Below, piece by piece: positions 29,114 through 42,423 of a DNA stretch of 64,000 bases. Source of the DNA: a virus (Duplodnaviria > Heunggongvirae > Uroviricota > Caudoviricetes). The first letter of the stretch is position 1; each line of letters begins with the position of its first letter. Where the stretch lies: positions 1-64,000 of IMG/VR virus record IMGVR_UViG_3300048587_000389. One strand, given 5' to 3'. Position numbers and translations under genes: made by a program. The notes beneath the pieces were generated by a model. It saw only the letters and a program-made list of their open reading frames with translations. It had not been told where the DNA came from and searched no databases.

Positions 29114-29404
29114 GTTGTCTCCTTTCATAGTATTTTTACGTAGTAAAATCGTATTCATAAAGTATTTATAACGTATAATAAATTTGTAATAGATTTGTTA
29201 AAGTTATTTTCTCCTTTCCAATATTTGTTTTGTATTTATGAGTGGATCTTATATCATTTTTCTTAGTTTGTAAATAGGCAATAAGTGTATCAAAGTATAT
29301 CGCCCAGTATGTCACAAAATAGGATTTGTTTTGGGTAACCTTATAGATACACCATTTAACCGAATACATGTCAAATCAATTTTGGTATAGTTTGATATAG
29401 TTTT

Positions 29405-29797: not shown

Positions 29798-29950
29798 ATG
29801 AAAGCAATCGAATTTTACATCAACGGAGGACTCACCAACATCTTCCCAAATGAGACTGAAAATGATCAAAAGCTCATTGAAAGATACGAAAAGATCGTCT
29901 TACAACAAGATCCTACTCGAAAGATCACAAAAGTCGAGATAACCCTCTAA
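29798..29950 (+). CDS. small protein (50 aa)
   Basis: AAAGGAGGACAAAATG RBS; below track cut-off. Confidence 0.4.
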   Translation: MKAIEFYINGGLTNIFPNETENDQKLIERYEKIVLQQDPTRKITKVEITL

Positions 29951-29973
29951 TCTTCAAACTCTTCAATAGTTAT

Positions 29974-30000
29974 GGCCCCTGGAAACAGGGGTCTTTTTTG
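29974..30000 (+). terminator. rho-independent terminator
   Basis: GGCCCCTGGAAACAGGGGTC hairpin then TTTTTTG. Confidence 0.7.
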
Positions 30001-30333
30001 TATTCAGAGAGGTGTTCACTCAGTGCCCAAAATAGGACTCTCTCTTTGATGCTTATAGTATATACCTTCTCTCTGTATACCCCTACTCTGTGACAGCCCA
30101 TTCTGTTTTGGATAGCCCTACCGTACAGGCTACCATCAGTCAGCATAGGTACTGAGTACTGTATGGGCGCAAAAAGATAACCACTCCAGACTACCTTAGT
30201 CTATATAAGCTATACACACAACATCCTATAACACACATTAGAGAGTTTGTAAACAGTACTACTATTACTACATACTGCTGCTGCATATACACAGCACAGG
30301 ACTCAGACTGCTGAATACGAGACGGAGGGCGAC

Positions 30334-30571
30334 AGTATATCGTAGTATATCAGACGTTAACACACCGTATACCAGTGTATCGCAGTGTATCACACTGTAT
30401 AACACTATATCGCCTAATAAGAGAGTAGGGGTAGGGGGTAAGGGAGTAGCCTAACTATATAACACTATATCACTATATATCTTAGTATATCAAAGTATAA
30501 CAAAGTATATTCAAGAGTATCTTTGTGCGCCACAGCTAATAACACTATATCAGACTATATCGCACTATATC
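30334..30571. repeat. iteron array: about 20 copies of 8-bp motif A(G/C)T(A/G)TAT(C/A) at 10-bp phasing in three blocks, split by G-tract spacer
   Basis: AGTATATC/AGTGTATC/ACTATATC at 30334, 30344, 30364, 30374, 30384, 30394, 30404; 30454-30523; 30544, 30554, 30564; spacer GGGGTAGGGGGTAAGGGAG; no ORF in 29950-30868. Confidence 0.7.
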
Positions 30572-30868
30572 AAAAGGGGGTGGACCGCAATTCTTTCATG
30601 GCTTTGTGCGCTGCTAGGCGCTGGTAAGTCTCTAGCTCTGCAGAGAGACTAGACTATGAGCCCACCGTATTGCAAGTGTTTTTCTGGAGTATACGGCTAC
30701 ACTCATACGTTCGTTACACACAGTGTTAGGATAATCTATAGGCTGTATACGAGCAATGTCAAAGTGTGACTTGTAGTTACCTGCAGAGTGTAACGACTAT
30801 TAGCCCATGGGGGACTAGGGGGACAAAAAGTAGGCCTGCGTAGCAAAGTGATGTGGCGCAAAATGTAT

Positions 30869-31051
30869 TCGCAAGTGTCACTTGACACGCCCCCTAGAGA
30901 CACTGTCACCATGTGTCCTAATGTACCACTCAAACCACCGCTCTAGCACTGCAGCTGCAGCAACGCGATCTAAACCGATGCGCCCAAAAGCTGTCCATGT
31001 GAGACATGCGTTGAGTTGGGATATGAGTTCATTCACCTGGGTAGCGGTCAT
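30869..31051 (-). CDS. small protein (60 aa), last gene of leftward operon
   Basis: GGAGGCCACATG start context shared with several operon members. Confidence 0.35.
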
Positions 31052-31386
31052 GTGGCCTCCTTGTGACTGCTTTCTTGATGTTGGATGTGCATGTGGCTAG
31101 TGCCGTACTTGTGCTCTTGTGTGATGCGCCTTTTGACCGCATCTGATGGCTCGCGCAACATGTACACTGAGCTAAGTTGTAGGTGGCAAAAGGGACAGTG
31201 TATGGTGCCTCCCGCTGGCGGATGCATGCCGTTGGGATAGTACGCATTAGAAGCCAAAAGCGCATCACCTAACTTGGGTGTCTTGAGCAAGTAGACTGCT
31301 GCAGAGTTGCAGTTGAAGCACCAGATGCAAGGAAGCTGATAGACTGGCAAGTCTGCAACAATGAGCTGCGAAATGTCAACTTTCAC
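31048..31386 (-). CDS. Cys-rich small protein, member of DISQLIVA N-terminal family
   Basis: MKVDISQLIVADLP; CIWCFNCN and HCPFCH zinc-binding-like pairs. Confidence 0.5.
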   Translation of the reverse strand: MKVDISQLIVADLPVYQLPCIWCFNCNSAAVYLLKTPKLGDALLASNAYYPNGMHPPAGGTIHCPFCHLQLSSVYMLREPSDAVKRRITQEHKYGTSHMHIQHQESSHKEAT

Positions 31387-31724
31387 TTGGCCTCCGCAAG
31401 TGACTCTCTTTTGATGCGCTCTTTAAGCACATCTAGAGTATTATAGTAACTATTGTCCGCATCCTCAAAGTCTTTCTGATACTTCTCGTATCTCAGAGCA
31501 TAACACACAGGGCAATACCGATCTGGATAGTCTCCCGGTTCGTAGGGATCGTATCTAGTACAACTGTTCATCCAAGAACGACAGACTAACCGCTCGCAAA
31601 TAGTGCACTTACAGAATTTGTTGAGGTCATTAGATTCATGGGCGCAAAAGTCGCATTGATAGATGTCGATCTCCTTCTTCTGTGCCTCTACTGCTGGTAT
31701 GTCAATAATTTTCTTTTTGAGCAT
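31383..31724 (-). CDS. Cys-rich zinc-finger-like protein
   Basis: multiple CxxC pairs (CDFC, CKCTIC, CPVC). Confidence 0.5.
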   Translation of the reverse strand: MLKKKIIDIPAVEAQKKEIDIYQCDFCAHESNDLNKFCKCTICERLVCRSWMNSCTRYDPYEPGDYPDRYCPVCYALRYEKYQKDFEDADNSYYNTLDVLKERIKRESLAEAK

Positions 31725-31733
31725 GTTGTCTCA

Positions 31734-31967
31734 TCACATAGTCCTGTTGTACAAACTTCTCATGTGTTCGTCGAGAGACTCTAGACCGTAGGTCATGTCT
31801 CGCGTCGGAAAAAGTGTCTCACTAAAAGCCTGTCCTCCGTGCATCACAGTCAATAAGAGCTTGTCCTCATAGATAGAAACTATGTATACTGCCGGGCAGG
31901 GATCGCCTTCATTGTGCTCAGCTGCAAGTCTGTTGACTTCTTTTTGTATAGTGCTTTGTATTGTCAT
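31734..31967 (-). CDS. hypothetical small protein
   Basis: 77-aa ORF. Confidence 0.45.
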   Translation of the reverse strand: MTIQSTIQKEVNRLAAEHNEGDPCPAVYIVSIYEDKLLLTVMHGGQAFSETLFPTRDMTYGLESLDEHMRSLYNRTM

Positions 31968-32200
31968 GTGGCCTTTGGTAGTAGTACGAAGTGTACTTTG
32001 TCGTCGTAACCTTGTTGTGCCCTTAATCTGTCCATAAACTCATCAAGCGGTATGTCTTTGCATTCTGGATATTTCTCTAAGATTGTTTGTATTATCTCTT
32101 GTGCTCCCATTTTTACATACTCTTGCGCGCTTATGTCAAAAGTTAGAGACCGCGCTCCTTCTGGCTCTGCTACAATAAGCTGGCTAATATCAATTCTCAT
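31964..32200 (-). CDS. small protein, DISQLIVA family
   Basis: MRIDISQLIVAEPE. Confidence 0.5.
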   Translation of the reverse strand: MRIDISQLIVAEPEGARSLTFDISAQEYVKMGAQEIIQTILEKYPECKDIPLDEFMDRLRAQQGYDDKVHFVLLPKAT

Positions 32201-32378
32201 AGTTTCTCATCGGAGTCACAGTTGCGTGTGTGAGATGCAATCCACTGTCATCAAAATAGAGTTCTAGACTTAGCTGATCTCCTGCTCGCACGTTCATACC
32301 ATCAGGAAGCTTTACTCGAAATGAGTTGTCTTCTTCTAGTTTAATGAGTTTTTTGACGTCTATTCTAAGAGACTGCAT
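32190..32378 (-). CDS. small protein, DISQLIVA family (divergent)
   Basis: LRIDVKKLIKL. Confidence 0.45.
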   Translation of the reverse strand: MQSLRIDVKKLIKLEEDNSFRVKLPDGMNVRAGDQLSLELYFDDSGLHLTHATVTPMRNYEN

Positions 32379-32637
32379 GTCTCATCTCCATTACGTATCT
32401 ATTGTTTTGTTCTAGCGCTCTAATACCCTGCTGTATAGTTTCAAGTGTCAATGCTCTTCCTGCAGCTGGTGTCTCAGATAGCGTTGGCTGCGCATCTTCT
32501 TCCCATTCTATATTCTCTGGCCAAAAGAACTTGCGCTCTTTGATCATTGCAATCATGTCGTCAACATAAGTTTTCGGGAGAAACTCAGTCTGCGGAACAA
32601 CTAGCTTGCGGACATCAACTCTCAGTGGCTGGCTCAT
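32365..32637 (-). CDS. small protein, DISQLIVA family (divergent)
   Basis: LRVDVRKLVVP. Confidence 0.45.
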   Translation of the reverse strand: MSQPLRVDVRKLVVPQTEFLPKTYVDDMIAMIKERKFFWPENIEWEEDAQPTLSETPAAGRALTLETIQQGIRALEQNNRYVMEMRHAVS

Positions 32638-32902
32638 AGAAATATGAAACTCCAGCTAAGAGTGCATTCTGTTGAAGTGCTCGCAAAACTCCAGTTTCAT
32701 CCTTTGCGCTTATCATGCCTAGAAAACTAACTACGCATTGCTTTTCTGGCCAGTGTGCTGGAACATGTATTCCGGGCTCAAGAACTATTTCTTCTTGCTC
32801 AAATAAATTGATGTACTTGCCTTCAGCATCTTTGATGGGACATTCATAAAATGTGAATGTTACCTGCCCATTATAGAATGCTGCGATCAATAAACCTTCC
32901 AT
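32615..32902 (-). CDS. hypothetical small protein
   Basis: GGAGGCCACATGGAAGG start context. Confidence 0.45.
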   Translation of the reverse strand: MEGLLIAAFYNGQVTFTFYECPIKDAEGKYINLFEQEEIVLEPGIHVPAHWPEKQCVVSFLGMISAKDETGVLRALQQNALLAGVSYFYEPATES

Positions 32903-32910
32903 GTGGCCTC

Positions 32911-33168
32911 CTATATTTCTACATGCTCTTCAAAAGCTTTGTCATATACTTTCCAGCTGACTATGCATTTGAAATGTGCTAATCCTGTTTTTACTTTAAG
33001 CAATTCTATTGCGCTTTTCTTCATTTGTTCTACAACTGCATCAACTCTCTTTGGTTCCGTTTCACCTGGAATCTCAATAAGTACTTGTTTTGAAGTTCTG
33101 TAGTATGTGTCTAGCGAAATAGATTTTGTCATATTATTCTTGCGGTCTTTTAAAGACTGCGATTGCAT
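32911..33168 (-). CDS. hypothetical small protein
   Basis: 85-aa ORF. Confidence 0.45.
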   Translation of the reverse strand: MQSQSLKDRKNNMTKSISLDTYYRTSKQVLIEIPGETEPKRVDAVVEQMKKSAIELLKVKTGLAHFKCIVSWKVYDKAFEEHVEI

Positions 33169-33285
33169 AGCCGTTGTGATACGAGTAGTAAACTAACTCC
33201 CACCCCAAAGCCCCTTGCTCACTAAGCTTTGCTTGAAGCTCTTGAGTGCTAATCATCTGGTCAAGAACGTTGTATTCCCATTTTG

Positions 33286-33519
33286 TCATTTGTGTCTCCT
33301 CGATTGCTTATTACGCTTGTTTGCCGCGCGTCTTTTTTCTAATTGCTTCTGCTTGTGTCTGTCTTGATCAATTCTGTATTGTCCCATACGTTCACTAGGT
33401 TGAAGTTTACCGTACTGCTCTGCTTGGCGCAAAGTAAGAGGGACGTGTTTCTCTTGCTCTTCTGGCGGCAAAGTGTTAAGCAATTCTTCAGTTATGATCT
33501 CGCCTGTGTCTACATGCAT
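33286..33519 (-). CDS. small protein with highly basic C-terminus
   Basis: 77-aa ORF, KR-rich tail. Confidence 0.45.
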   Translation of the reverse strand: MHVDTGEIITEELLNTLPPEEQEKHVPLTLRQAEQYGKLQPSERMGQYRIDQDRHKQKQLEKRRAANKRNKQSRRHK

Positions 33520-33549
33520 ATAGTATCCTTTATCTTCTCAAAGCAAAGC

Positions 33550-33768
33550 CTATTTCTTGGCCTTGCATGTTCTTCCGCAGAGTTTGTTTACCACATTTTG
33601 TTCAAAAGCCTTATTCAGCGGACCAATTGTCACTAAAAGCGCAAATGCCCAGGAGATTGTCGTAGCTGCTACTGCCAGCCACCCATAAAATGAGTAAGAC
33701 CAAAACGTGTTGAGCCCAATAAGTGCTAACAAGGCTAGATATTTTGTTTTTCCTCTGAGATGGGCCAT
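33550..33768 (-). CDS. small membrane protein
   Basis: two hydrophobic spans. Confidence 0.4.
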   Translation of the reverse strand: MAHLRGKTKYLALLALIGLNTFWSYSFYGWLAVAATTISWAFALLVTIGPLNKAFEQNVVNKLCGRTCKAKK

Positions 33769-33947
33769 AATGGCTTTCCTTTTAATGTTAGTGACTTGTC
33801 TTCGCGATCTGCTCTGACTGAGTACTGAATCTTTATTTTTCCTGTGAGCAGCGCTTTCAAGATGAACAGCCTCTTGATTGGGAGTATGACTTCATACGTG
33901 TCCCACCTATTCCAAGTTACTGCTGGATATGTGACTGCTTTCTTCAC
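33735..33947 (-). CDS. hypothetical small protein
   Basis: 70-aa ORF. Confidence 0.4.
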   Translation of the reverse strand: MKKAVTYPAVTWNRWDTYEVILPIKRLFILKALLTGKIKIQYSVRADREDKSLTLKGKPLWPISEEKQNI

Positions 33948-33949
33948 TG

Positions 33950-34222
33950 TTACTCCTTATCTGGTATAAGACTGTAATATCGTGCTTCACCATTTACTGT
34001 GGCACACATATCTGGACTTTTATATCCACTGACATATTTGTATTCTTGTCCGTAAAATCCCTTACAAGCTTCATCTTGTGTCCAATATCCTTTATGCTGC
34101 GGACGAGTAGATGAATGCCATGCGCCAAAAATAACAATTATGATAACTGCTAGAATGACAAATACAAAGAACTTGTCATCGCCATCAGATTCTGTGTATT
34201 CCCATGATGAGCTGGTTGTCAT
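33950..34222 (-). CDS. small membrane protein
   Basis: FFVFVILAVIIIVIFGAW TM. Confidence 0.45.
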   Translation of the reverse strand: MTTSSSWEYTESDGDDKFFVFVILAVIIIVIFGAWHSSTRPQHKGYWTQDEACKGFYGQEYKYVSGYKSPDMCATVNGEARYYSLIPDKE

Positions 34223-34425
34223 ATCTCTTCCTCCATAAAGTCTTTGACTGCTGCTTGCATCATTTCACCACATACATACTTGATGAAGTGCATAAAATCT
34301 TCTGGATTAGAAAAGCGAGCAATAGTTTTTCCTGTGCTTTTCTCTATGAGGTCATACCAGTCTGCATGAGCTTTCGGGCCATGTGCAGTTGTCTTTCTAA
34401 CCTCGTAATTTATGTTGTTGAACAT
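34219..34425 (-). CDS. hypothetical small protein
   Basis: 68-aa ORF, ATGA overlap. Confidence 0.45.
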   Translation of the reverse strand: MFNNINYEVRKTTAHGPKAHADWYDLIEKSTGKTIARFSNPEDFMHFIKYVCGEMMQAAVKDFMEEEI

Positions 34426-34471
34426 ATTGCTCCTGTATGTCTATTATATTCGGAAATTATGCAAAAGTATA

Positions 34472-35080
34472 CTAGAGTTTTCGGTCAGATCCGTCTTTCC
34501 AAAACTTTGTCTTGCGCAGATAATGTTCTCTTCTGGCAATGTCCCATGCCTCCATACGGCTAATATTGCTCAATCTATCTGCTAACTTGATCATTATTCC
34601 GTGCTGTGACTTCAATCTAGGAAAATATCTTCCGTACGAGTCTTTTTCACCTTCATGAGTCACCTCCATCACTAAATCTGCAATTTCTTTCCCAAAATTG
34701 TCCAATAACTCATCATACGATGTATTTGTGTCCTCAATTGTGTCATGCAGTAACCCTGCAGCTAAAACAGCCTCATTTTTTGTTACTTTTTGCAAAATAT
34801 TGAACACGTTGAGTAAATGCGCATCAAAATATGACTTTCCTTCATCATCTAGTTGATCTTTGTGCTTACTTTGCGCAAAACGATATGCTCTGCCTACTAC
34901 CATGGGCAAAGAACCAACATATTCAGCATCTCTGCATATATCACACCCTTCTGGGTAATGAACATGGTTGCAGAAGCCGCTCGGGTTAGCAAGCTCTTTC
35001 TGAAAGCCGCAGTGCTTACAAAATAGATCTGGGCGCATTATTTTAAGTCTGCGCTCTTCACTTTTGCTATGGATTTTCAT
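34472..35080 (-). CDS. SpoT/Mesh1-like HD-domain (p)ppGpp hydrolase with N-terminal zinc ribbon (small alarmone hydrolase)
   Basis: AAGLLHDTIEDT and KLADRLSN motifs of RelA/SpoT hydrolase domain; CKHCG ... CDIC ribbon. Confidence 0.6.
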   Translation of the reverse strand: MKIHSKSEERRLKIMRPDLFCKHCGFQKELANPSGFCNHVHYPEGCDICRDAEYVGSLPMVVGRAYRFAQSKHKDQLDDEGKSYFDAHLLNVFNILQKVTKNEAVLAAGLLHDTIEDTNTSYDELLDNFGKEIADLVMEVTHEGEKDSYGRYFPRLKSQHGIMIKLADRLSNISRMEAWDIARREHYLRKTKFWKDGSDRKL

Positions 35081-35086
35081 GTTGTC

Positions 35087-35593
35087 CTAATCAGTTGTAT
35101 ATCTAATGAATTTGTTTCTTTGCATATCATTAAGATAAAATCTGAGATACTGAATACAAGCCAGCGTTTCATCTTCTGTCAAATTCTGTTTCCAGTATTT
35201 TTCTTTGAGCTCAATTCTGAACCATACACTTCCGTGTTTTGGGCCCATAAAATGTCCGCAACTTACTCTTTGTGAGTTCCATCCAGAGTATGATTTGACT
35301 CCGATGTATTCTTCTTTAAGTGTTTTTGCGCCGTTTCTTAAATCTTTAATTGCTTCGTTAATAGCATCAATGCACTCTTTTGTGAAATAGTCATTTGAAT
35401 TTCTCACCTCTATAATATGCACTCCAGCATCTGCAGCATCGTCGTTCAAGCCATCTTCTATAAGATTTCGTGCTTTGATAAGCTCATTAAGTGATTTATC
35501 AACACTTGCCATGTCTAGATCAAACTTTGTTTTGAGTCGCAATTTCATATCTTGTCTGATACTGATTTGCTTGTTTAGTTCTTCGTATGTCAT
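35087..35593 (-). CDS. hypothetical protein
   Basis: 168-aa ORF. Confidence 0.5.
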   Translation of the reverse strand: MTYEELNKQISIRQDMKLRLKTKFDLDMASVDKSLNELIKARNLIEDGLNDDAADAGVHIIEVRNSNDYFTKECIDAINEAIKDLRNGAKTLKEEYIGVKSYSGWNSQRVSCGHFMGPKHGSVWFRIELKEKYWKQNLTEDETLACIQYLRFYLNDMQRNKFIRYTTD

Positions 35594-35611
35594 TTGTCCT
35601 CCCTCAAAAGA

Positions 35612-35890
35612 CTAATTTAGTATTTGTGGAATAATAAAATCCACATCATCGTAAGAAATAATGCAATCTCTTTCAAGTTGAGGTGCCATTTTAAGCAACT
35701 GATCTTTGATTTTCTCAAAGTCTGTGCCCCACTCTTCTTCCATGACATCATCTAGTTTACATTTGATAACAAATTTTATGATGTTGGGCCCGTAAGTGTA
35801 TTCTCCCTCAGTCCATGCTTTAGAAAGATAGTAGATCAAAAATGTTACTTCATTAGACATATTTCTCCTTAATCTAGATGTGATGCACAT
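35612..35890 (-). CDS. hypothetical small protein
   Basis: 92-aa ORF. Confidence 0.45.
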   Translation of the reverse strand: MCITSRLRRNMSNEVTFLIYYLSKAWTEGEYTYGPNIIKFVIKCKLDDVMEEEWGTDFEKIKDQLLKMAPQLERDCIISYDDVDFIIPQILN

Positions 35891-36102
35891 TGGTATGTTA
35901 TACCGAATATGCCCTTGTTTTCTAATAGCACTCCACCACGCTTATCACAGTTTGTCTTGAATTGCGCAACCATCTCTTCACCTCTCCATATTGGCTGTGA
36001 CATCGCAATAAAAAGAAGTATGCCAAGCAAAATTGCTGTTGCTGTCCAAACACGCTCGCCTGCTTTTGTTGTAAAGAAGCCTCCGCCTATGACATCACCC
36101 AT
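35869..36102 (-). CDS. small membrane protein
   Basis: TM AILLGILLFIAM. Confidence 0.4.
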   Translation of the reverse strand: MGDVIGGGFFTTKAGERVWTATAILLGILLFIAMSQPIWRGEEMVAQFKTNCDKRGGVLLENKGIFGITYQCASHLD

Positions 36103-36103
36103 G

Positions 36104-36340
36104 TTACTCCTTTATTTTTTGGTCGTGGACCAAATTTGTAAACTTAGCCATTGCGCCATCAAATTGTTCTGCAATTTCGTTGATCTTTTTCTGATCAACA
36201 CCAATGTGAAGAGCCATGTCAGTTGCTTCTTTGAAAGTTTTGACAAATTGTGTTAACGCACTTCTCTGTTTGTCGTAAATGCGCTTCTTCCAGTATTCAG
36301 ATTTCTGTTCTGGTGTAAAAACTGTTCGAGTCTTACTCAT
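36104..36340 (-). CDS. hypothetical small protein
   Basis: 78-aa ORF. Confidence 0.45.
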   Translation of the reverse strand: MSKTRTVFTPEQKSEYWKKRIYDKQRSALTQFVKTFKEATDMALHIGVDQKKINEIAEQFDGAMAKFTNLVHDQKIKE

Positions 36341-36348
36341 ATTTCCTC

Positions 36349-37503
36349 CTAATCCTTGTAGGGATCATAAATATCTTTGCCGGCCATAGCAACTCCGACC
36401 GGTGTGAGCTGATGAAGTATTTCGATAGTGCCTTCATGATATGCAAGCACTTCGTTTAATTTTTTGTAAGCGTCTGGAGCCTCATCTGCTCCGCCACCCT
36501 TGAGGATGACTCCTCTTTCTCCAGCTTCCCACTGTACGACTTCCCAATCAATCTTTTTCTTAGCTTGACTGCGACTTAGAGCTCTTCCGGCACCATGTAC
36601 TGTAGTATATAGCGCTTCTTTAGAAGTGTCAGAGTCGATTCCACGGAGTATCACAGAGTTGTCCATCATATTCGAGCCAACAAATCCGAGCTGTCCAGGG
36701 AATGCCGGAGTACATCCTTTGCGGACTACCCAATACTTTTTCCCATAATGCTCTTCCTGCCAAGCAAAGTTGTGATGGTTGTGAATCTCTTCTACTGCTC
36801 TTGTCTGTAATATGTCCAAAACTTCTTCAACAACTGCATTACGGCCTGCATAAGCATATTCGCCAGCAAGTGTCATTGCTTCAATGTAAGCCTGACCTAA
36901 GTCAGTGCGCACATCAAAGAGAATAGGTGGACTGTCCATCTCTCCTTCATTTGCATGTTCATGGAATTCTTTTCCTTGATTAAGTGCTATAAATCCTGAA
37001 GCTGTCTTGTGGCCGAATCCTCTTGAACCGAAGTGTACTCCGATCCAGACAAATCCGTTCTCGTCTTTGAAGAGGTCAACATAATGGTTTCCACTACCAA
37101 CTGTTCCCAGCTGGTTAACCGCAAGATCATAAAGTTTACGTTGCGGCTCAAATTTAGCATCTTTGATGTGTTGTAAGACAATGTCATCCACTTTTTTCTT
37201 ATTTGTGCGACCAACGCCGAAGGATACTCTTTCAACAATTTCGTCCATAATCTTTCGAATGTCACCAAGATCTTCGATCTTAATATCAGTTCGAACGGCT
37301 TTGTTACCACACCCAATGTCATATCCCACACCGCTTGGAGAAATGAAATACTCATACGCAACAGTTCCGCCAATAGGCATTGAATAACCCACATGATGAT
37401 CAGCTGAAAGAACTGCATATTCGGCGTCTCCTGCTTCTGTGCATCTTATAAGTTGAGCATGTGCTCGCTGGTCTAATGGACCAAATGTTTTTACTTTTGT
37501 CAT
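36349..37503 (-). CDS. rtcB: RtcB-family RNA 3'-phosphate/5'-OH ligase
   Basis: GYDIGCGN, GSGNHYVDLF, HFGSRGFGHKTA, HNHHNF, VVRKGCT, TVHGAGR (RtcB metal and GTP-binding motifs). Confidence 0.8.
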   Translation of the reverse strand: MTKVKTFGPLDQRAHAQLIRCTEAGDAEYAVLSADHHVGYSMPIGGTVAYEYFISPSGVGYDIGCGNKAVRTDIKIEDLGDIRKIMDEIVERVSFGVGRTNKKKVDDIVLQHIKDAKFEPQRKLYDLAVNQLGTVGSGNHYVDLFKDENGFVWIGVHFGSRGFGHKTASGFIALNQGKEFHEHANEGEMDSPPILFDVRTDLGQAYIEAMTLAGEYAYAGRNAVVEEVLDILQTRAVEEIHNHHNFAWQEEHYGKKYWVVRKGCTPAFPGQLGFVGSNMMDNSVILRGIDSDTSKEALYTTVHGAGRALSRSQAKKKIDWEVVQWEAGERGVILKGGGADEAPDAYKKLNEVLAYHEGTIEILHQLTPVGVAMAGKDIYDPYKD

Positions 37504-37515
37504 ACGTGTATATTC

Positions 37516-37544
37516 ATTATAAACTTTTTATATTCGCTCGTAAA
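37516..37544 (-). promoter_or_regulatory. leftward promoter TTTACG(17)TATAAT immediately upstream of rtcB
   Basis: -10 ends about 6 nt before rtcB ATG, no SD, so possibly a leaderless transcript. Confidence 0.4.
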
Positions 37545-37571
37545 CTGCAAAAAGGCCCTCCGAAGAGGGCC
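37545..37571 (-). terminator. leftward rho-independent terminator after homing-endonuclease gene
   Basis: GGCCCTCTTCGGAGGGCC hairpin then TTTTT on minus strand. Confidence 0.6.
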
Positions 37572-37759
37572 GATTCTGCTAACCGTTGTATTGGATGTTC
37601 GTGAGCATTTTCTTTAGTGACCATGCTTCGTACTCAAGGAATGCGCTCAATACTTCATGTCCATGTAGCTCAAGGATCTCAGAGAATTTCTCTTTGAAAC
37701 TCTTGCGTGATAGTACATAACTTCGTAAAATCTTGTGAATATCTTCCATAAACTCTCCT

Positions 37760-38278
37760 TTAATCGTTCATTAATAAATCTGCGTTTTCTGTTTCCCATC
37801 GCAGTCGGGCTTGGTAAGCTTCTTCCTCGGTGAGGTGCAAGCCTAAGTTGTATTCGACACCGCGGACGGTGATGTAAGCTTGCCACTTACCATTACGAGT
37901 TTCGCAGACACCGTTGTACATGCTTGTAGCATCGTATGTCTTCTCTTCTCGTTCTCGGAATGATTTACCAATGTGATACCACCATGTGCGCCATTCAAGA
38001 TTCTGGATGCGCAAATCATCTTTGTCTCCATTGATGAAGCCCGGAGTCTGATGCTCATGATCAGGTGGAAGGCCGCGGAAGGTGATCAACATGAGGTATG
38101 GAACACTAAATGTCGCTGCTCTGCCCCTCTTAGAAAGAGAAACAAGGTGAAGTCCATTCTCATTGATCTGGTGCTTCAACAGCCGAATACCATTGCGGTA
38201 AACATGCCCCTTGGTGGACACTTCATAGCGGTAACCGGGAAGTGGAACCGGTTTGATGATTGCGACATTGTCGTTCAT
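37760..38278 (-). CDS. HNH homing endonuclease with C-terminal AP2 DNA-binding domain
   Basis: N-terminal HNH_3-type region (GYRYEVSTKGHVY ... HLVSLSKRG), C-terminal YNGVCETRNGKWQAYI ... EEEAYQARL AP2 signature. Confidence 0.6.
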   Translation of the reverse strand: MNDNVAIIKPVPLPGYRYEVSTKGHVYRNGIRLLKHQINENGLHLVSLSKRGRAATFSVPYLMLITFRGLPPDHEHQTPGFINGDKDDLRIQNLEWRTWWYHIGKSFREREEKTYDATSMYNGVCETRNGKWQAYITVRGVEYNLGLHLTEEEAYQARLRWETENADLLMND

Positions 38279-38376
38279 ACATCCTCCTTGTTATTTTGTA
38301 ACATATTCAGTATATTACAAAAACACAGGAGAAGTAAACTATATCTTTTGGGAACAAACTATATCAAATACAAGGG

Positions 38377-38550
38377 TTATTCAGCAGATTGCTGCTGTTT
38401 AATGAAGGTTTCTGCTTCTTCTTTTGTGGTAAACCAGCTGATAGACTGACCACTGTGTTGTTTCTTAGTATTGCCTGACGCAATTTCTTTGAATACAGTT
38501 ACACACCATGAATTAGCACGCTTTACCCATTTAGGTCCTAGAATTCTCAT
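38377..38550 (-). CDS. small protein (57 aa)
   Basis: TAAGGAGATAATATG RBS. Confidence 0.35.
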   Translation of the reverse strand: MRILGPKWVKRANSWCVTVFKEIASGNTKKQHSGQSISWFTTKEEAETFIKQQQSAE

Positions 38551-38559
38551 ATTATCTCC

Positions 38560-38724
38560 TTATATGTCCCATGACATTTGCTCAAGGCATTCGTCACAAA
38601 ACCAATGCTTTTTATCCCAATCACCTTCTTGATATTCATGAAGATATGGGTTGTATGTCCACTCACACATTTTCTTGTGTTTGCAAGAGTGACATTTGTG
38701 TAATTTCTTTTGTGGTTCTTTCAT
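38560..38724 (-). CDS. small zinc-ribbon protein (54 aa)
   Basis: CHSC ... CDEC; ATGA coupling with upstream gene. Confidence 0.35.
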   Translation of the reverse strand: MKEPQKKLHKCHSCKHKKMCEWTYNPYLHEYQEGDWDKKHWFCDECLEQMSWDI

Positions 38725-38894
38725 ACGTACACCTTTACGTATATTCCAGTTATATCACCAAAACGACGAAAAAGAAACTCCAAAAGTTCTGCTTTCTCTT
38801 CTTCGGGTAAGGCTACTCGAAGCTCTCTCGTGCCAATTTTGTCTGCGCCAAAGGTTTCTATAGCCTCATTTTCAATCATCTCAAATATGTTCAT
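38721..38894 (-). CDS. small protein (57 aa)
   Basis: ORF MNIFEMIENEA... Confidence 0.3.
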   Translation of the reverse strand: MNIFEMIENEAIETFGADKIGTRELRVALPEEEKAELLEFLFRRFGDITGIYVKVYV

Positions 38895-39088
38895 GGGATG
38901 TCCCTCCGAAGTATAAGGTTTATTGTTTTTGCTATGATTGCACTAAATCCTATAAACCAGAATGGCGGAAAGAATGAAAGCACAATCCAAAGATACATCT
39001 CTTCTGGATCTATGTCAAAGTTCCACCAATAGAGAAGCGCAAAGATATTAAGCCCGACTAGTGCAAAGTATATTGCTAAGAAATTCAT
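38891..39088 (-). CDS. small membrane protein
   Basis: two TM spans. Confidence 0.4.
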   Translation of the reverse strand: MNFLAIYFALVGLNIFALLYWWNFDIDPEEMYLWIVLSFFPPFWFIGFSAIIAKTINLILRRDIP

Positions 39089-39507
39089 GAGTTGAGTTCT
39101 TTCTTATGTGCAAAGTAGTGGTCTGTGCAACAGTAGTCTTTCTTCTTGGTAAACTTCCAGTTGCGATTTGCAAAGAAGCCTATGCCGCAAGAAGGGTATT
39201 GACATGTGCATTCTTCATCTAGATCATAATTCTTGCCAATCTTTTCACAGTCTGGACTACAGAACATCAATGCGCTTCTCTTTTTTGATGCTAGACTGTG
39301 CACATTAATGGGATCGCCACAAATGACACATCTAAACTTCTCGTTGACAAAAGCTTGCTTGACAAAGGAGTAATTAGCACCAATGCATTGCTCAAAAATA
39401 GCCTTAACTCGCTGGCGAGTAATGCCATAAGCGTCACCGATGCTTTCAAGAGTTGCCTCCGGCATCAATAACTTGCCAATGATTTCTCCTTTTATGTCTT
39501 CTGCCAT
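39085..39507 (-). CDS. HTH plus Cys-rich zinc-finger protein (possible transcription regulator)
   Basis: sigma region-4-like HTH ATLESIGDAYGITRQRVKAIF; CVIC ... CSPDC ... CTCQYPSC. Confidence 0.45.
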   Translation of the reverse strand: MAEDIKGEIIGKLLMPEATLESIGDAYGITRQRVKAIFEQCIGANYSFVKQAFVNEKFRCVICGDPINVHSLASKKRSALMFCSPDCEKIGKNYDLDEECTCQYPSCGIGFFANRNWKFTKKKDYCCTDHYFAHKKELNS

Positions 39508-39508
39508 A

Positions 39509-39793
39509 TTAGTAACTGATCATCTTTTCAGTGATCACCTTATCTTTATATTCAGCTAAAAAACGGTTTGCTAGCTCCTTTTTAGGAATGCGATTGTGGA
39601 AGTAAGCGTCTACTTTTCTGCTAATTGATCTGAGTGTTGTTTTGTGATCATCGTCATAGTCTATTGAATAGATATGTACTTTGAACTTATATCCTTCAGA
39701 CTCTATATCAACAACGTATTGTGATGAATCGAGCGAGAAGAACTTCTCAATCTCTGATTTTGAGCGCATATTCAAGACTTTAAATGTGTGCAT
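39509..39793 (-). CDS. hypothetical small protein
   Basis: 94-aa ORF. Confidence 0.45.
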   Translation of the reverse strand: MHTFKVLNMRSKSEIEKFFSLDSSQYVVDIESEGYKFKVHIYSIDYDDDHKTTLRSISRKVDAYFHNRIPKKELANRFLAEYKDKVITEKMISY

Positions 39794-39997
39794 ACATCCT
39801 CCGTATATGTTTTATATTTGAGTTGATTGTATCACAAAAATGGGAAGTTGTAAATATGAAAAAAGCTACCAATTGCTGAGTTTGAGGAACTTACGTTTGT
39901 AGGGGAGGACGTATGTCTCAGCAGCTTGGTAGCTTATGTTGTAATTATATCAAACTATATCGTACTATAACATCCCCAGATTTGTAGCACGAGGCCC

Positions 39998-40474
39998 TCA
40001 GTTTCCCAGTAAAGGCACTGAAGTATGGGGTTGGATATTATATCCATCCACTTTTTCAAGGTATTTTCCCAAGTATTCGAGATAAGTGTTCCGGTCATCT
40101 CCGGGTGGCATGTCAATAAGTTCATCCGCGATACATAAACTCTTCACTATGCGTGGATATAACGACTGTTCTACAGCATTTAAGTGAACACGAAGTGAAG
40201 TATAGTTTTGCGGGTTAAGAATCTCTAGTTCTTTAGCTAGTTTCTTGTCAATGTCTTCAAGGAAAAATACAACATCTCTAGCATATCCTCCGCTAGCTAC
40301 ATGATGATAATCGTGTAACCAACACAAAGCAACAATCTCGTTATTGTATCCTTTAGCAATTGCTCGCTGGACTACACGCTTTACGTGAAAGATTATTGGT
40401 CTGTCGTACAGAGACTTGTGCTCGTAGAGACTAAGCCCCAGTTGTACTGTCTGCTGGAGCTGAAGGGATGTCAG
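39998..40474 (-). CDS. putative HD-domain hydrolase
   Basis: IFHVKRV ... ALCWLHDYHH His-Asp signature; start uncertain (track ORF extends to 40561, overlapping upstream gene). Confidence 0.35.
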   Translation of the reverse strand: MTSLQLQQTVQLGLSLYEHKSLYDRPIIFHVKRVVQRAIAKGYNNEIVALCWLHDYHHVASGGYARDVVFFLEDIDKKLAKELEILNPQNYTSLRVHLNAVEQSLYPRIVKSLCIADELIDMPPGDDRNTYLEYLGKYLEKVDGYNIQPHTSVPLLGN

Positions 40475-40805
40475 CATAAACTTGAAGCTCCTCTTTAGCG
40501 GCATTTTCTTTGTTAGATGATGGCATGACGTCCAAGAACACGAAACCAATTCCTTTGTCAAATTCTTTCTTTGTCATTTTTGCCCATCCTTCAGCCTTAG
40601 AAAGTGATCGCCAGTTTTTGTTTACCCAAGCTTCGAACTCTTCCTGCACTTCTTGGGGCGCATAAAAAGCTCTTACATTCCATTGAATGCCTGGGAGCAT
40701 AAGTTGATCAAGGTCAATGCCGAATTGTCGATACATATTCCAGCCAATAGACTTGTTAGGGTCTAGCAGAGATGTATCTAGTTGTGTAATTTCTCTAGTT
40801 GTCAT
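40431..40805 (-). CDS. hypothetical protein
   Basis: GAGGAGGAAAATG RBS at internal Met. Confidence 0.45.
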   Translation of the reverse strand: MTTREITQLDTSLLDPNKSIGWNMYRQFGIDLDQLMLPGIQWNVRAFYAPQEVQEEFEAWVNKNWRSLSKAEGWAKMTKKEFDKGIGFVFLDVMPSSNKENAAKEELQVYADIPSAPADSTTGA

Positions 40806-40954
40806 TTTCCTCCTCATCTTCTATGCTATGCATAGCGTCTTCAAATCCTTGCCAATTATCTACTCCGTACTCTTCAAGAGCTTCTAATTCTCTTGAGCGT
40901 CGTTTCAATCCATTGTACTCGGACATTGAAATTGTAATTGTTTCTTCTGGCATG

Positions 40955-41437
40955 TTACTCCTTTTCGTCGAACTCACCTTTAATAGCTCGCATAACTTGA
41001 TCTACAATTGTTGTGAGATGCTCTGGCGTAGTATCTAAGTGCGCATCAAGAACTTCTCTCACTCTTCGTCTATCTTCAAGACTGTCCCAAATAACTGTTC
41101 CGAAACATTCCTGTATCTTTCCGCCTTTGAGAACAACAATCCAGTATGAATCATCTGTAATGTCAGTTACTTCTACATTGCAATCAAGATCTGGAACTAT
41201 TGCTGCCACCGCTCGTAAATAATTGAGAAATGCTTCGTAATACTCTATTTTTGTGAAGTATATTTGATCTAGACTTTTTGAGTATGTAGCAAAGCCGTAT
41301 GCTTGGTGCTTGTTAAGACCTTCAAGTCTTTTAACTTGATTCTCATTAAGGTCAACTGAATCAAGCTCAATACTTGAAGCATCAAGATTTTCTTTTTCAG
41401 CAGACTCGATGATAGCCCTATTAGGATTCTTTTTCAT
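40955..41437 (-). CDS. hypothetical acidic protein
   Basis: GGAGGAGCGTATG RBS at internal Met of track ORF. Confidence 0.4.
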   Translation of the reverse strand: MKKNPNRAIIESAEKENLDASSIELDSVDLNENQVKRLEGLNKHQAYGFATYSKSLDQIYFTKIEYYEAFLNYLRAVAAIVPDLDCNVEVTDITDDSYWIVVLKGGKIQECFGTVIWDSLEDRRRVREVLDAHLDTTPEHLTTIVDQVMRAIKGEFDEKE

Positions 41438-41453
41438 ACGCTCCTCCTTACTA

Positions 41454-41996
41454 TTATATTCTAGATTGTTTTCGAAGTACATCAGCAACATGGGACTGGA
41501 TCTTACTAAGTTGTACTGGCGTGTAGTTGATTTGCTCAACACACACATTGTAAAAAGATTTAGGGTTCGGGACTGGTCCTACTCCTTTCGAGTGCACATG
41601 ACCGTGGACATTAAAGAAGTTACTCGGCAATCCTCGAATAGGATAGTGTGAGAAAATGATTTTATACTTATCAAACTCTTTGAAAATAGGCTCACCAATA
41701 ACACGGAATCCCATTTCTTCATAGAGAGCTATACTCTTTGTGTCGTGGTTACCGAGTATCAGCCATTTATTGCCATTTAGTTGTTTGATGTATTCTCTGG
41801 CTTCTTCAATGGGACACAAAAAGACGTCTCCTAAATGGAGAATATTGGAATGCTTTGAAACTGTATTGTTCCAGTTTCGCACCATCATTTCATTGTGATT
41901 TTCAGGCCTATTTTCGTACTTGACTATATTTTTGTGACCAAAGTGTGTGTCCGATATAATCCAAGTGTTACTGTTTAGCCAGTTCTGTCGACTCAT
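41454..41996 (-). CDS. calcineurin-like metallophosphoesterase
   Basis: ISDTHFGH, GDVF, GNHD, HGHVH motifs. Confidence 0.6.
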   Translation of the reverse strand: MSRQNWLNSNTWIISDTHFGHKNIVKYENRPENHNEMMVRNWNNTVSKHSNILHLGDVFLCPIEEAREYIKQLNGNKWLILGNHDTKSIALYEEMGFRVIGEPIFKEFDKYKIIFSHYPIRGLPSNFFNVHGHVHSKGVGPVPNPKSFYNVCVEQINYTPVQLSKIQSHVADVLRKQSRI

Positions 41997-42180
41997 ACAG
42001 ATATGCTTTCTTTAATGCATCTTCAAGATCTGCACCGATAAAGGTGCGGCGAGTATCTTGACGTACTTCGCCATATTTTGTAATGTTGTACACGTCAACA
42101 ACAGAATCTTGTGCCGGTGAAAACTCCATGAATACGTAAAAACGCATTGATAACCACTGTAACATTTCTGTCGTTGTCAT
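41968..42180 (-). CDS. hypothetical small protein
   Basis: 70-aa ORF. Confidence 0.4.
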   Translation of the reverse strand: MTTTEMLQWLSMRFYVFMEFSPAQDSVVDVYNITKYGEVRQDTRRTFIGADLEDALKKAYLYESTELAKQ

Positions 42181-42197
42181 GCAACCTCCTTATTTTT

Positions 42198-42407: not shown

Positions 42408-42423
42408 ATACTCTCTTTTTTTT

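What the first reader, a model, noticed from the sequence alone, without database searches (positions are those of the whole stretch)
29950..30900. ORF-free 900-bp region with about 20 phased 8-bp iterons and a G-tract spacer: candidate replication origin or centromere
Between 30334 and 30571 the motif A(G/C)T(A/G)TAT(C/A) recurs about 20 times. In two blocks the copies sit at exactly 10-bp (one helical turn) spacing: 30334 to 30404 (8 positions, 7 clear copies) and 30544, 30554, 30564. The blocks are separated by GGGGTAGGGGGTAAGGGAG, and AT-rich DNA lies upstream. Same-face phased iterons are the signature of an initiator- or ParB-type binding site (origin or partition site). Related ACTATATC-type motifs also occur next to several leftward promoters (17417, 38351-38366, 42956), so one DNA-binding protein may serve both.
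Basis: seen in the sequence. Interest (0 to 1): 0.7.

Follow-up and report, generated by a model that had tools for sequence, protein, structure and literature searches.

The report
Phased 10-bp repeat array in phage gap
A gene-free 927-bp stretch of a new, roughly 94-kb phage holds about 17 copies of an 8-base motif, all spaced in exact multiples of 10 bases; the same motif sits just upstream of some of the phage's early promoters, so it is probably a protein-docking platform, and I think it most likely marks the genome end or packaging region rather than a proven replication origin or centromere.

Summary
Window 29951-30877 has no credible gene. Between 30334 and 30571, A(G/C)T(A/G)TAT(C/A) fills 16-17 of 24 consecutive 10-bp slots in a single register: three blocks, one orientation, with G-tracts beside them. 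Dinucleotide shuffles give at most 3 in-register copies.

Read on the other strand, the unit is GATATAGT/GATATACT. It also sits exactly 8 nt upstream of the -35 hexamer at four of eleven TATTTACAA-N17-TATAAT promoters, in the promoter's orientation. So one sequence-specific factor, a phage regulator or host RNA polymerase, probably reads both.

The gap lies between convergent gene blocks: a rightward tRNA/TerL block and 12.3 kb of small leftward early genes. By gene order it matches the genome-end / terminal-repeat junction of the nearest characterised phages (Streptomyces phage Yaboi; phage T5 has the same layout). Phage T7 has a comparable phased heptamer array beside its terminal repeat. 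The one true relative found (portal 70% identical) has a looser cluster of the same motif in the equivalent gap.

Origin and centromere readings are not excluded, but nothing specific supports them: the genes screened include no initiator or partition gene, the array has no adjacent unwinding element and the gap has no DnaA box, and the GC-skew signal is confounded by transcription direction. Function is inferred throughout.

The parts
29951..30877 (.). Untranslated 927-bp gap between two converging gene blocks: rightward genes end at 29950, the last leftward gene ends at 30878.
   Evidence: ORF list. Codon-usage score and absence of ribosome-binding sites for internal ORFs. No Rfam match and no significant RNA fold.
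29974..29998 (+). Intrinsic terminator closing the rightward block (GGCCCCTG-GAAA-CAGGGGTC followed by TTTTTT).
   Evidence: Terminator scan.
30334..30411 (+). Left block of the array: 8 slots of 10 bp, 6 exact copies plus one with one mismatch (AGTATATC x2, ACCGTATA, AGTGTATC x2, ACTGTATA, ACTATATC).
30412..30453 (+). Spacer that keeps the 10-bp register. Successive units at 30404 and 30454 are exactly 50 bp apart. It contains the G-tract GGGGTAGGGGGTAAGGGAG (30427-30445).
   Evidence: Five of the nine TAGGGG occurrences in the window lie in or beside this gap.
30454..30521 (+). Middle block: 7 slots (ACTATATA, ACTATATC, TATATATC, AGTATATC, AGTATAAC, AGTATATT, AGAGTATC). This is the most AT-rich part of the array.
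30522..30543 (+). Second spacer (two slots). It carries TTTGTGCGCC, one of four copies of a GGCGCA(A/C)AA motif in the gap (30166, 30523, 30604, 30855).
30544..30571 (+). Right block: three exact ACTATATC units at 10-bp spacing, followed by AAAAGGGGGTGG.
30809..30897 (.). G5/C5 elements near the early-gene side of the gap: GGGGG at 30809, then CTAGGGGG (30815-30822) paired with CCCCCTAG (30890-30897). The relative L287 has a similar G5...C5 pair at the equivalent place.
30638..30807 (+). Two copies of a 27-nt direct repeat (CTGCAGAG...ACTAT.AGCCCA, at 30638-30664 and 30781-30807). This is further repeat structure in the gap.
29284..29301 (+). Two units at 10-bp spacing (AGTGTATC, AGTATATC). 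They lie 9 nt upstream of the -35 hexamer of the leftward promoter at 29274-29246.
29384..29401 (-). Two units at 10-bp spacing, reading GGTATAGT and GATATAGT on the + strand. They lie 8 nt upstream of the -35 hexamer of the strong rightward promoter at 29410-29438.
17430..17437 (+). One unit 8 nt upstream of the -35 hexamer of the leftward promoter TATTTACAA at 17423. A second copy, at 17393, serves as that promoter's -10 element (TATACT).
42962..42969 (+). One unit 8 nt upstream of the -35 hexamer of the leftward promoter TATTTACAA at 42955.
38338..38365 (+). Two units 20 bp apart upstream of a leftward promoter. The proximal unit abuts a TTTACT -35 hexamer.
30878..43208 (-). Block of about 35 small leftward genes (12.3 kb) transcribed towards the gap. 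I propose it as the counterpart of the early genes carried in the terminal repeats of Yaboi and T5.

Best explanation
What it is: a multi-site docking platform for one sequence-specific DNA-binding factor, built from a 10-bp unit whose conserved 8 bases read GATATAGT/GATATACT on the - strand. The same unit, in one or two copies, lies at about -51 to -44 of a subset of the phage's sigma-70-type early promoters. Those promoters have weak -10 hexamers, so the factor also acts in transcription. It is either a phage early regulator or the host RNA polymerase itself, because the unit is also an extended -10 look-alike (TGnTATAGT).

How it would work: in the array, 16-17 units in one orientation and one 10-bp register would let the factor polymerise head to tail along about 240 bp.

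What I think it is for (inferred): the gap is the genome-end / terminal-repeat junction of a T5- or Yaboi-style siphovirus, and the array is part of the end-recognition region. That covers terminase or end-binding, packaging start or stop, or an entry checkpoint like the T5 injection-stop region.

Shown: the array, its register, the shared promoter element, the convergent gene-free setting, and the positional match to known genome ends.

Inferred: that protein binds at all, which protein it is, and the end or packaging role.
For: 1. The array and its single register are far beyond chance.
2. The unit sits at a fixed offset in four of eleven TATTTACAA promoters (17423-, 29276-, 29408+, 42955-), with a variant arrangement at 38358. 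Promoters with the unit mostly have weak TATACT or TAAGAT -10 hexamers, whereas those without it have TGnTATAAT.
3. TerL's nearest characterised relatives are Brevibacillus phage Jenst (33.6% identity), Thermus phiYS40 (31%) and Streptomyces BE-cluster phages such as Yaboi (30.6%).
4. Yaboi has a 12.4-kb terminal repeat of about 27 small leftward genes. Before the right-hand copy come a rightward tRNA/tmRNA block and an 885-bp non-coding gap. That gap holds the physical end and 13-bp-phased CAGCC repeats.
5. Gene order matches. In Yaboi it is HJ resolvase - RuvC - TerL - Band7/tRNAs | END | small leftward genes | switch | portal. In the window it is the same, with the gap where Yaboi has its end.
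6. In T5, a 2.2-kb untranslated, repeat-rich region between convergent blocks holds the terminal-repeat boundary and the proposed injection-stop signal.
7. T7 has about 13 CCTAAAG heptamers at 13-bp spacing right next to its 160-bp terminal repeat. CCCCCATAGGGGG lies nearby and a leftward host promoter lies inside the array.
8. The relative L287 (portal 70% identical, about 40 window ORFs with tblastn matches, in the same order) has a 713-bp gap in the same place. That gap has 5-6 units in the same orientation, the locus's highest lag-10 signal, and a G5/C5 pair.
9. Three unrelated viral contigs have imperfect 10-bp TAGTATAT-type arrays just upstream of TerS-TerL-portal, the classic place for packaging sites.
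Against: - There are no physical-end data. The source contig and the relative's contig both read straight through the gap.
- TerL identity to phages with terminal repeats is only about 30%, and no phylogeny was built. Jenst's repeat is just 359 bp, so the packaging mode is not established.
- A promoter-linked motif is not what one expects of a terminase site.
- No DnaA boxes are present, unlike the terminal regions of T5 and Yaboi.
- In L287 the units are not strictly phased, so the exact register here may partly be a legacy of slippage.
- The link between similar arrays and terminase genes in other contigs is post hoc and rests on few cases.
Confidence: 0.35

Rival explanations
1. Replication origin. 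The units are iterons for a phage initiator that also regulates promoters. Binding along the array distorts neighbouring DNA, or promotes an R-loop at the G-tract, and starts replication.
For: - The array has an iteron-like anatomy: repeated octamers in blocks with a spacer.
- G-rich tracts lie on one strand.
- The least stable DNA of the whole window (29120-29480) lies within 1.2 kb and carries four more units between divergent promoters.
- In unrelated contig L049, a similar array is followed by 70 bp of AT-rich DNA and a perfect DnaA box.
Against: - No initiator, helicase or primase gene was found among the window proteins screened.
- No unwinding element adjoins the array and there is no DnaA box in the gap.
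- Transcription converges on the site.
- The cumulative GC skew is at a maximum here and at a minimum near 42-43 kb, which is the opposite of origin polarity, though it is confounded by coding strand.
Confidence: 0.22
2. Purely transcriptional device. The array is a reservoir or sink, a nucleation site or a roadblock for the early-promoter factor. It would time the early-to-middle switch or insulate the two converging transcription units.
For: - The unit occupies an activator-type position at promoters with weak -10 hexamers.
- The array lies exactly where two transcription units collide.
- A candidate early HTH protein (39085-39507) is expressed from a promoter that lacks the unit. It is conserved at 54% identity in the relative.
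Against: - I know of no precedent in lytic phages for an array of about 17 sites acting as a sink.
- The relative manages with 5-6 unphased copies.
- A good terminator already ends the rightward block.
Confidence: 0.18
3. Host RNA polymerase 'promoter island'. Each unit is an extended -10 look-alike, and TTGATA from one unit plus TATAGT two units on mimic a -35/-10 pair. The array would then capture sigma-70 holoenzyme rather than a dedicated phage protein.
For: - The scan finds two leftward promoter-like sites inside the array, each 10 of 12 matches with a TG motif.
- From my reading of the unit sequences, the invariant positions of the unit are those that matter for -10 recognition (T-12, A-11, T-7), while -10 and -8 vary.
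- Units serve as real -10 elements at 17393 and 38309.
- T7's terminal array contains the leftward host promoter A0.
Against: - Promoter-like matches in the 2.8-kb region scanned (28800-31600) are no more frequent than in shuffles: 7 found against 7.4 expected.
- Most units lack the T of the TG motif.
- There is no obvious transcript or gene downstream of the array.
Confidence: 0.1
4. Partition centromere of the parC/tubC type for a plasmid-like prophage state.
For: - A short motif at one-helical-turn spacing in blocks is the classic parC form.
- The TerL relative Jenst has an 11-bp-phased TTCACCT array (seven direct copies by Tandem Repeats Finder, plus further inverted copies in the sequence) directly upstream of a ParM-like 'partition protein'.
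Against: - No ParM, ParA, TubZ or adaptor gene was found among the window proteins screened, and there is no Jenst par or rep homologue.
- The array is not upstream of any operon.
- The genome looks lytic: 31 tRNAs, a tmRNA and no integrase among the proteins screened.
Confidence: 0.06
5. Neutral, fast-evolving minisatellite that grew by slippage from a promoter fragment and has no function of its own.
For: - Neighbouring units are most alike, which fits local duplication.
- The spacers look like decayed units (AGTAGGGGTA).
- The relative has far fewer, unphased copies.
- Perfect 10-bp TATA-type tandem repeats are common in AT-rich viral contigs.
Against: - Eight of the ten positions are conserved across units, while the two linker bases vary freely.
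- The register is kept for 230 bp without a single indel.
- A motif cluster is retained in the equivalent gap of a relative whose proteins are only 25-70% identical.
Confidence: 0.09

Closest known systems
Short-repeat array at the left end of phage T7 (about 13 CCTAAAG heptamers, nt 175-341, beside the 160-bp terminal repeat)
   Same: Untranslated; a short motif in one orientation at a fixed spacing, in two blocks. G5/C5 tracts lie nearby and a leftward host promoter lies inside the array. It is adjacent to a genome terminus.
   Different: The period is 13 bp rather than 10 bp, and the motif is a heptamer. T7 is an unrelated podovirus. To my knowledge the function of the T7 array itself is not settled. 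No physical end has been shown here.
Phage T5 'repeat region 3' / injection-stop region at the inner edge of the left terminal repeat
   Same: A large untranslated, repeat-rich region. It lies between a block of small pre-early genes transcribed towards it and a converging early block, and it contains a terminal-repeat boundary.
   Different: T5's repeats are 15-66 bp long and irregularly spaced, with palindromes and paired DnaA boxes. None of these is present here. There is no detectable protein homology to T5.
Terminal gap of Streptomyces phage Yaboi (BE cluster, Stanwilliamsviridae)
   Same: Closest characterised relative by TerL and portal, with matching overall gene order. An 885-bp non-coding gap lies between a rightward tRNA/tmRNA block and about 12 kb of small leftward genes. 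The gap contains short phased repeats and the physical end.
   Different: The repeats are CAGCC at 13-bp spacing, only 5+2 copies, and confined to the terminus. Two perfect inverted DnaA boxes are present. Protein identities to the window are only 23-43%.
parC-type centromeres, for example the array upstream of the ParM-like gene of Brevibacillus phage Jenst (R1 parC and pSK41 parC from my own knowledge)
   Same: A 7-8-bp motif repeated at one helical turn in blocks. The binding protein also controls promoters.
   Different: Those arrays overlap the promoter of the partition operon. Here there is no partition gene, and the array lies between converging genes.
Iteron origins built from short repeats (P4 ori/crr octamers, SaPI ori; from my own knowledge)
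   Same: Repeated short motifs in two or more blocks around a spacer.
   Different: Those origins have an adjacent initiator or helicase gene and an AT-rich spacer. Here the spacer is G-rich and no initiator gene was found among the window proteins screened.
Tandem 10-11-bp sites of OmpR/PhoB-type activators upstream of the -35 hexamer (from my own knowledge)
   Same: Direct repeats at one-turn spacing, oriented with the promoter and ending just upstream of -35. This matches the promoter-linked units.
   Different: No such regulator has been identified in the phage, and those systems have no array of 17 units.

Membership tests
Iteron-type replication origin | Cluster of direct repeats able to bind an initiator | tested here: met
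   16-17 units in 24 phased slots.
Iteron-type replication origin | AT-rich DNA-unwinding element directly beside the iterons | tested here: not met
   The flanks of the array are 45-58% GC. The nearest strongly unstable DNA is at 29120-29480, 0.9 kb away.
Iteron-type replication origin | Linked initiator (rep) or helicase gene | tested here: not met
   No such domain in any window protein screened. About 30 kb of the contig was not available.
Iteron-type replication origin | Host-factor sites (DnaA boxes) | tested here: not met
   No TTATCCACA match with up to 1 mismatch in 28255-35495. The window total equals chance expectation.
Iteron-type replication origin | Supports replication / copy-number peak | not testable with these tools
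   This needs marker-frequency or plasmid assays. GC skew is confounded by coding strand.
parC / tubC-type partition centromere | Short repeats at about one helical turn | tested here: met
   Exact 10-bp register.
parC / tubC-type partition centromere | Lies directly upstream of, and regulates, a partition NTPase-adaptor operon | tested here: not met
   The array lies between converging genes. No ParM, ParA or TubZ was found among the window proteins screened, and there is no Jenst par homologue.
Genome-end / terminal-repeat junction region of large siphoviruses with direct terminal repeats (as in T5 and Yaboi) | Large untranslated, repeat-rich gap next to a block of small early genes, between converging blocks | tested here: met
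   A 927-bp gap with a 12.3-kb leftward small-gene block on one side. The same layout is seen in T5, Yaboi and the relative L287.
Genome-end / terminal-repeat junction region of large siphoviruses with direct terminal repeats (as in T5 and Yaboi) | Position equivalent to a mapped end in related genomes | tested here: met
   The order HJ resolvase-RuvC-TerL-tRNAs | gap | small genes | portal matches Yaboi.
Genome-end / terminal-repeat junction region of large siphoviruses with direct terminal repeats (as in T5 and Yaboi) | Terminase of a terminal-repeat packaging lineage | tested here: inconclusive
   The best TerL hits are phages with terminal repeats, but identity is only 30-34% and no tree was built.
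Genome-end / terminal-repeat junction region of large siphoviruses with direct terminal repeats (as in T5 and Yaboi) | Physical DNA end or repeat boundary inside the gap | not testable with these tools
   This needs read-start and coverage analysis or end sequencing of virion DNA.
Structured non-coding RNA gene | Rfam match or a fold significantly more stable than shuffles | tested here: not met
   Only one chance-level Rfam hit. Fold z-scores range from -1.5 to +0.5.

The most novel reading that the evidence does not exclude
The array is a capture device for the host transcription machinery, or for an early phage activator, placed at the terminal-repeat boundary. By binding about 17 copies of the factor that also drives a subset of early promoters, it would couple genome entry or packaging to how much of that factor is available. 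That would make it a sequence-defined counterpart of the unexplained T5 injection-stop signal, built from promoter elements rather than DnaA boxes.
Probability: 0.1. Interest if true: 0.75.

Novelty: new variant of a known kind. Interest (0 to 1): 0.45.

Why it matters
- Large phages with long terminal repeats have poorly understood, repeat-rich untranslated regions at their ends. T5's injection-stop signal has been unexplained for decades.
- This phage offers an unusually clean case. One 8-bp word is repeated in perfect helical register, and the same word has a defined position at promoters. That gives a concrete handle for finding the binding protein by footprinting or pull-down.
- It also allows a test of whether end recognition, DNA entry and early transcription share a factor.
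- If the array is instead an origin, it would be the first origin defined for this uncharacterised phage lineage.
- Either way, the promoter grammar found here is useful for annotating this group: cCC-TATTTACAA-N17-TATAAT, with or without the upstream GATATAGT.

Tried and rejected
- DNA similarity: blastn of the gap against 50,697 phage records found no match.
- Structured RNA: Rfam and RNA folding of both flanks on both strands gave nothing significant, so I rejected a structured RNA.
- Coding repeat: rejected on the ORF and codon-score results.
- Relatives through neighbouring genes:
  - The radical-SAM gene and RtcB in IMG/VR gave only distant hits with no shared gene order.
  - The Logan contig L157 shares only RtcB.
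  - The adjacent genes 31383-31724 and 31048-31386 have no homologues.
  - Exact-protein look-ups of window proteins failed.
That scan was wasted.
- Success came only through the HTH protein 39085-39507, which led to the 94-kb relative L287.
- DnaA boxes: none in the gap.
- G-quadruplex: by my reading of the sequence, the spacer has only three G-runs, so no canonical four-run motif.
- Integration site (attP): no integrase among the proteins screened, and the genome looks lytic.
- Candidate DNA-binding proteins: Pfam and PHROGs on the small early proteins gave only one weak HTH (39085-39507, sigma-70 region 4, E = 8e-4, below the curated cut-off).
- Jenst's terminal gap: it has dispersed repeats and a TAGTATAGATATAGAT stretch, but no phased array.
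Full report
**Setting.** The window comes from a novel tailed phage.
- It carries 31 tRNA genes and a tmRNA, a class II ribonucleotide reductase, and portal, protease and capsid genes.
- TerL is at 14432-16027 and a RuvC-like resolvase at 12837-13352. RtcB and an HD-domain protein lie in the leftward block.
- An identical RtcB in the protein collection lies on a JGI contig of 94,156 bp, which is probably the source.
- Rightward genes run from the start of the window to 29950 and end at a good intrinsic terminator (29974-29998).
- About 35 small leftward genes run from about 43.2 kb down to 30878.
- The finding therefore sits in a 927-bp gap (29951-30877) between converging transcription units.

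**Checking the observation.** The gap is gene-free.
- Internal ORFs are 65 aa or shorter, score at or below about 0 bits per codon on a codon-usage test, and lack ribosome-binding sites. The flanking genes have AGGAG-type sites.
- The motif A(G/C)T(A/G)TAT(C/A) occurs 31 times on the + strand of the window and 7 times on the - strand. Thirteen of the + copies lie in 30334-30564.
- Written in 10-bp rows from 30334 to 30564 there are 24 slots. My count from the rows is 12 exact copies, 4 with one mismatch and 1 with two, all in the same register.
There are three (30334-30411, 30454-30521, 30544-30571), and the register holds across both spacers.
- Lag-10 self-identity over 240 bp is 128, against a window mean of 62 (sd 9), and is the top peak in 64 kb.
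- There are 14 in-register copies, against at most 3 in 1000 dinucleotide shuffles of the region itself.
- Eight of the ten unit positions are conserved; the two linker bases are free.
- The gap holds other repeats as well: TAGGGG/G5 tracts, a CTAGGGGG/CCCCCTAG pair, four GGCGCA(A/C)AA copies, and a 27-nt direct repeat.
- It is not a known RNA family and does not fold better than shuffled sequence.

**The motif is also a promoter element.** This is the main new result.
- The phage's promoters follow a clear consensus: cCC-TATTTACAA-N17-(TGn)TATAAT. Eleven carry the exact TATTTACAA, and the two next to the gap match 11 of 12 consensus positions.
- Four of the eleven (17423-, 29276-, 29408+, 42955-) carry the array unit 8-9 nt upstream of the -35 hexamer. 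On the promoter's own strand it reads GATATAGT, GATATACT or GATACACT. That places it at about -51 to -44. Two of these promoters have a second copy exactly 10 bp further upstream. A fifth promoter (38358) has two copies 20 bp apart.
- For an 8-mer at a fixed offset, my estimate of the chance expectation is about 0.001 occurrences in eleven promoters.
- Promoters with the unit mostly have weak -10 hexamers (TATACT, TAAGAT). Those without it, including the ones driving tRNA and tmRNA genes, have TGnTATAAT. The unit therefore behaves like an activator or UP-type site (inference).
- The unit is itself an extended -10 look-alike, and it serves as the real -10 element at 17393 and 38309.
- Outside the array, the motif is not enriched over shuffles at a loose threshold, so only the position-specific cases count.
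- All array units are oriented as for leftward promoters, but no -35/-10 pair follows any block at the promoter spacing.
The factor could be a phage protein or host RNA polymerase.
- The only phage candidate with any DNA-binding signal is 39085-39507: a weak sigma-70 region 4 HTH, expressed from a promoter that lacks the unit.

**Tests of the origin and centromere reading.**
- No initiator, helicase loader, primase, ParA/ParM/TubZ or integrase domain was found in the roughly 70 window proteins screened. About 30 kb of the contig was not available.
- No DnaA box occurs in the gap.
- The array has no AT-rich unwinding element beside it. The least stable DNA of the whole window is the divergent-promoter region at 29120-29480, which carries four units.
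- The cumulative GC skew peaks at 28-31 kb and bottoms at 42-43 kb. This follows the coding-strand switches. If it reflected replication, it would mark a terminus here, not an origin.
- parC-type centromeres sit upstream of their operon, and this array does not. For contrast, the TerL relative Jenst has a textbook case: an 11-bp-phased TTCACCT array directly upstream of a ParM-like gene. The window has no homologue of that system.

**Where the gap sits in related genomes.**
- TerL's nearest characterised relatives are Brevibacillus phage Jenst, Thermus phiYS40 and Streptomyces BE-cluster phages such as Yaboi, at 30-34% identity. The portal also hits the BE cluster.
- From the offset between duplicated genes (gene 1 at 485, its copy at 119303), Yaboi has a 12,432-bp direct terminal repeat containing about 27 small leftward genes.
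- The right-hand copy of that repeat is preceded by a rightward tRNA/tmRNA/Band-7 block and an 885-bp non-coding gap. That gap contains the physical end, 13-bp-phased CAGCC repeats confined to the terminus, and two inverted DnaA boxes.
- Homologous genes keep the same order in both genomes. Yaboi: HJ resolvase, RuvC, TerL, then tRNAs, END, small leftward genes, strand switch, portal. In the window the gap occupies the END position, and the leftward block is 12.3 kb.
- T5 shows the same logic. Pre-early genes are transcribed towards a 2.2-kb untranslated, repeat-rich region that holds the terminal-repeat boundary and the proposed injection-stop signal, with early genes converging from the other side.
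- T7 has about 13 CCTAAAG heptamers at 13-bp spacing immediately inside its 160-bp terminal repeat. CCCCCATAGGGGG lies close by and a leftward host promoter lies within the array.
- Jenst's terminal gap is about 880 bp, repeat-rich, and contains a TAGTATAGATATAGAT stretch.

**A true relative.**
- The HTH protein led to a Logan contig of 94,003 bp (L287). Its portal is 70% identical, and about 40 window ORFs have tblastn matches in the same order.
- L287 has the same 12.4-kb block of small genes and then a 713-bp gene-free gap, followed by converging genes.
- The genes closest to the gap on both sides are not conserved between the two phages.
- The L287 gap contains 5-6 units in the same orientation relative to the early block (19% of the locus's matches in 3.5% of its length). 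It also has the highest lag-10 signal of the locus (z about 4.2-4.7) and a G5...C5 pair.
- The copies in L287 are not in a strict register, and the two gaps do not align. So a cluster of this motif at this junction is conserved, but the high copy number and perfect phasing are special to the window. They may owe something to recent tandem expansion.
- L287 uses the same promoter consensus, and one of its promoters has GACATAGT at the same offset.

**Similar arrays elsewhere.**
- A scan of IMG/VR for three phased units found 68 loci, mostly perfect tandem repeats.
- Among the imperfect arrays, three (L016, L038, L049) lie in non-coding DNA just upstream of a terminase-portal module (TerL and portal in L038 and L049, with a recognisable small-terminase gene only in L049; TerL in L016). 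L007 has a shorter array in the same position. This is the classic place for packaging sites.
- The association is post hoc and rests on few cases.
- In L049 the array is followed by AT-rich DNA and a perfect DnaA box, which looks equally like an origin.

**Verdict.**
- The array is real and almost certainly a protein-binding platform that shares its recognition word with a subset of early promoters.
- I rank its role as follows:
  - part of the genome-end / terminal-repeat junction (packaging or end function, or a T5-like entry checkpoint): 0.35;
  - replication origin: 0.22;
  - purely transcriptional sink or insulator: 0.18;
  - RNA polymerase promoter island: 0.10;
  - neutral minisatellite: 0.09;
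  - centromere: 0.06.
- None of these is demonstrated. The quickest decisive test is read-start and coverage analysis of the raw reads.

Noticed in passing
window, promoters at 4051+, 5370+, 11940+, 17423-, 17802-, 24141+, 26533+, 29276-, 29408+, 29734+, 39856-, 42955-: The phage has a very uniform sigma-70-type promoter consensus, cCC-TATTTACAA-N17-(TGn)TATAAT. Several of these promoters drive tRNA and tmRNA genes. The relative L287 uses the same consensus.
   Followed up: yes
window 3967-26646: 31 tRNA genes and a tmRNA (4371-4703), all on the + strand. The distant relative Yaboi has a comparable tRNA/tmRNA block.
   Followed up: partly
window 52678-58895: Directly after the major capsid gene (50753-51697) comes a run of about seven glycosyltransferases, a methyltransferase and a polysaccharide deacetylase. 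This suggests glycosylation of the virion or of the host surface.
   Followed up: no
window 31048-32637 (- strand): Four adjacent small proteins share an N-terminal motif: M(K/R)(V/I)DISQLIVA... in two of them, and a looser R(I/V)DV(K/R)KL(I/V) form in the other two. This is a paralogous family next to the gap. The first two genes beside the gap (30878-31386) have unusually high GC and weak codon scores.
   Followed up: no
window 43374-43433: Three copies of AATTGGCGTGT lie in the divergent control region between the early block and the structural genes. This is a second, different candidate operator set.
   Followed up: no
window 28982-29114 (- strand): A 43-aa, very basic ORF (MAKQIRNLVR...RPGRPRIHKR) with a good ribosome-binding site, its own unit-bearing promoter and a terminator, but a poor codon score. 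It could be a small DNA-binding protein or not a gene at all.
   Followed up: partly
window 26951-28277: A gene pair (a 143-aa protein matching phrog_28997 plus a radical-SAM enzyme) recurs together in several 118-430-kb IMG/VR phage contigs. No other genes are shared in order.
   Followed up: partly
L282 (Brevibacillus phage Jenst) 2870-3042: A textbook parC-like array: TTCACCT-type units at 11-bp spacing (seven direct copies by Tandem Repeats Finder, plus further inverted copies), directly upstream of a ParM-like 'partition protein' and next to a replication initiator gene. A tandem run of TTATCCACA-type 9-mers lies at 1878-1913.
   Followed up: partly
L280 (Streptomyces phage Yaboi) 5720-5760 and 5893-6167: Two perfect inverted DnaA boxes lie 70-90 bp outside the terminal-repeat boundary. 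13-bp-phased CAGCC repeats lie just inside it and are found nowhere else in the genome. The DnaA boxes echo those in the T5 injection-stop region.
   Followed up: partly
L016 8928-9160, L038 972-1080, L049 2237-2400, L007 about 5300: Unrelated viral contigs carry imperfect 10-bp TAGTATAT-type arrays in the non-coding DNA just upstream of their terminase-portal genes. In L049 the array is followed by 70 bp of AT-rich DNA, a perfect DnaA box and a G6 tract.
   Followed up: partly
window 34472-37503 (- strand): RtcB RNA ligase and an HD-domain protein sit in the early leftward block. With the many tRNAs, this suggests tRNA repair as a counter-defence. The HD protein is conserved in L287.
   Followed up: no
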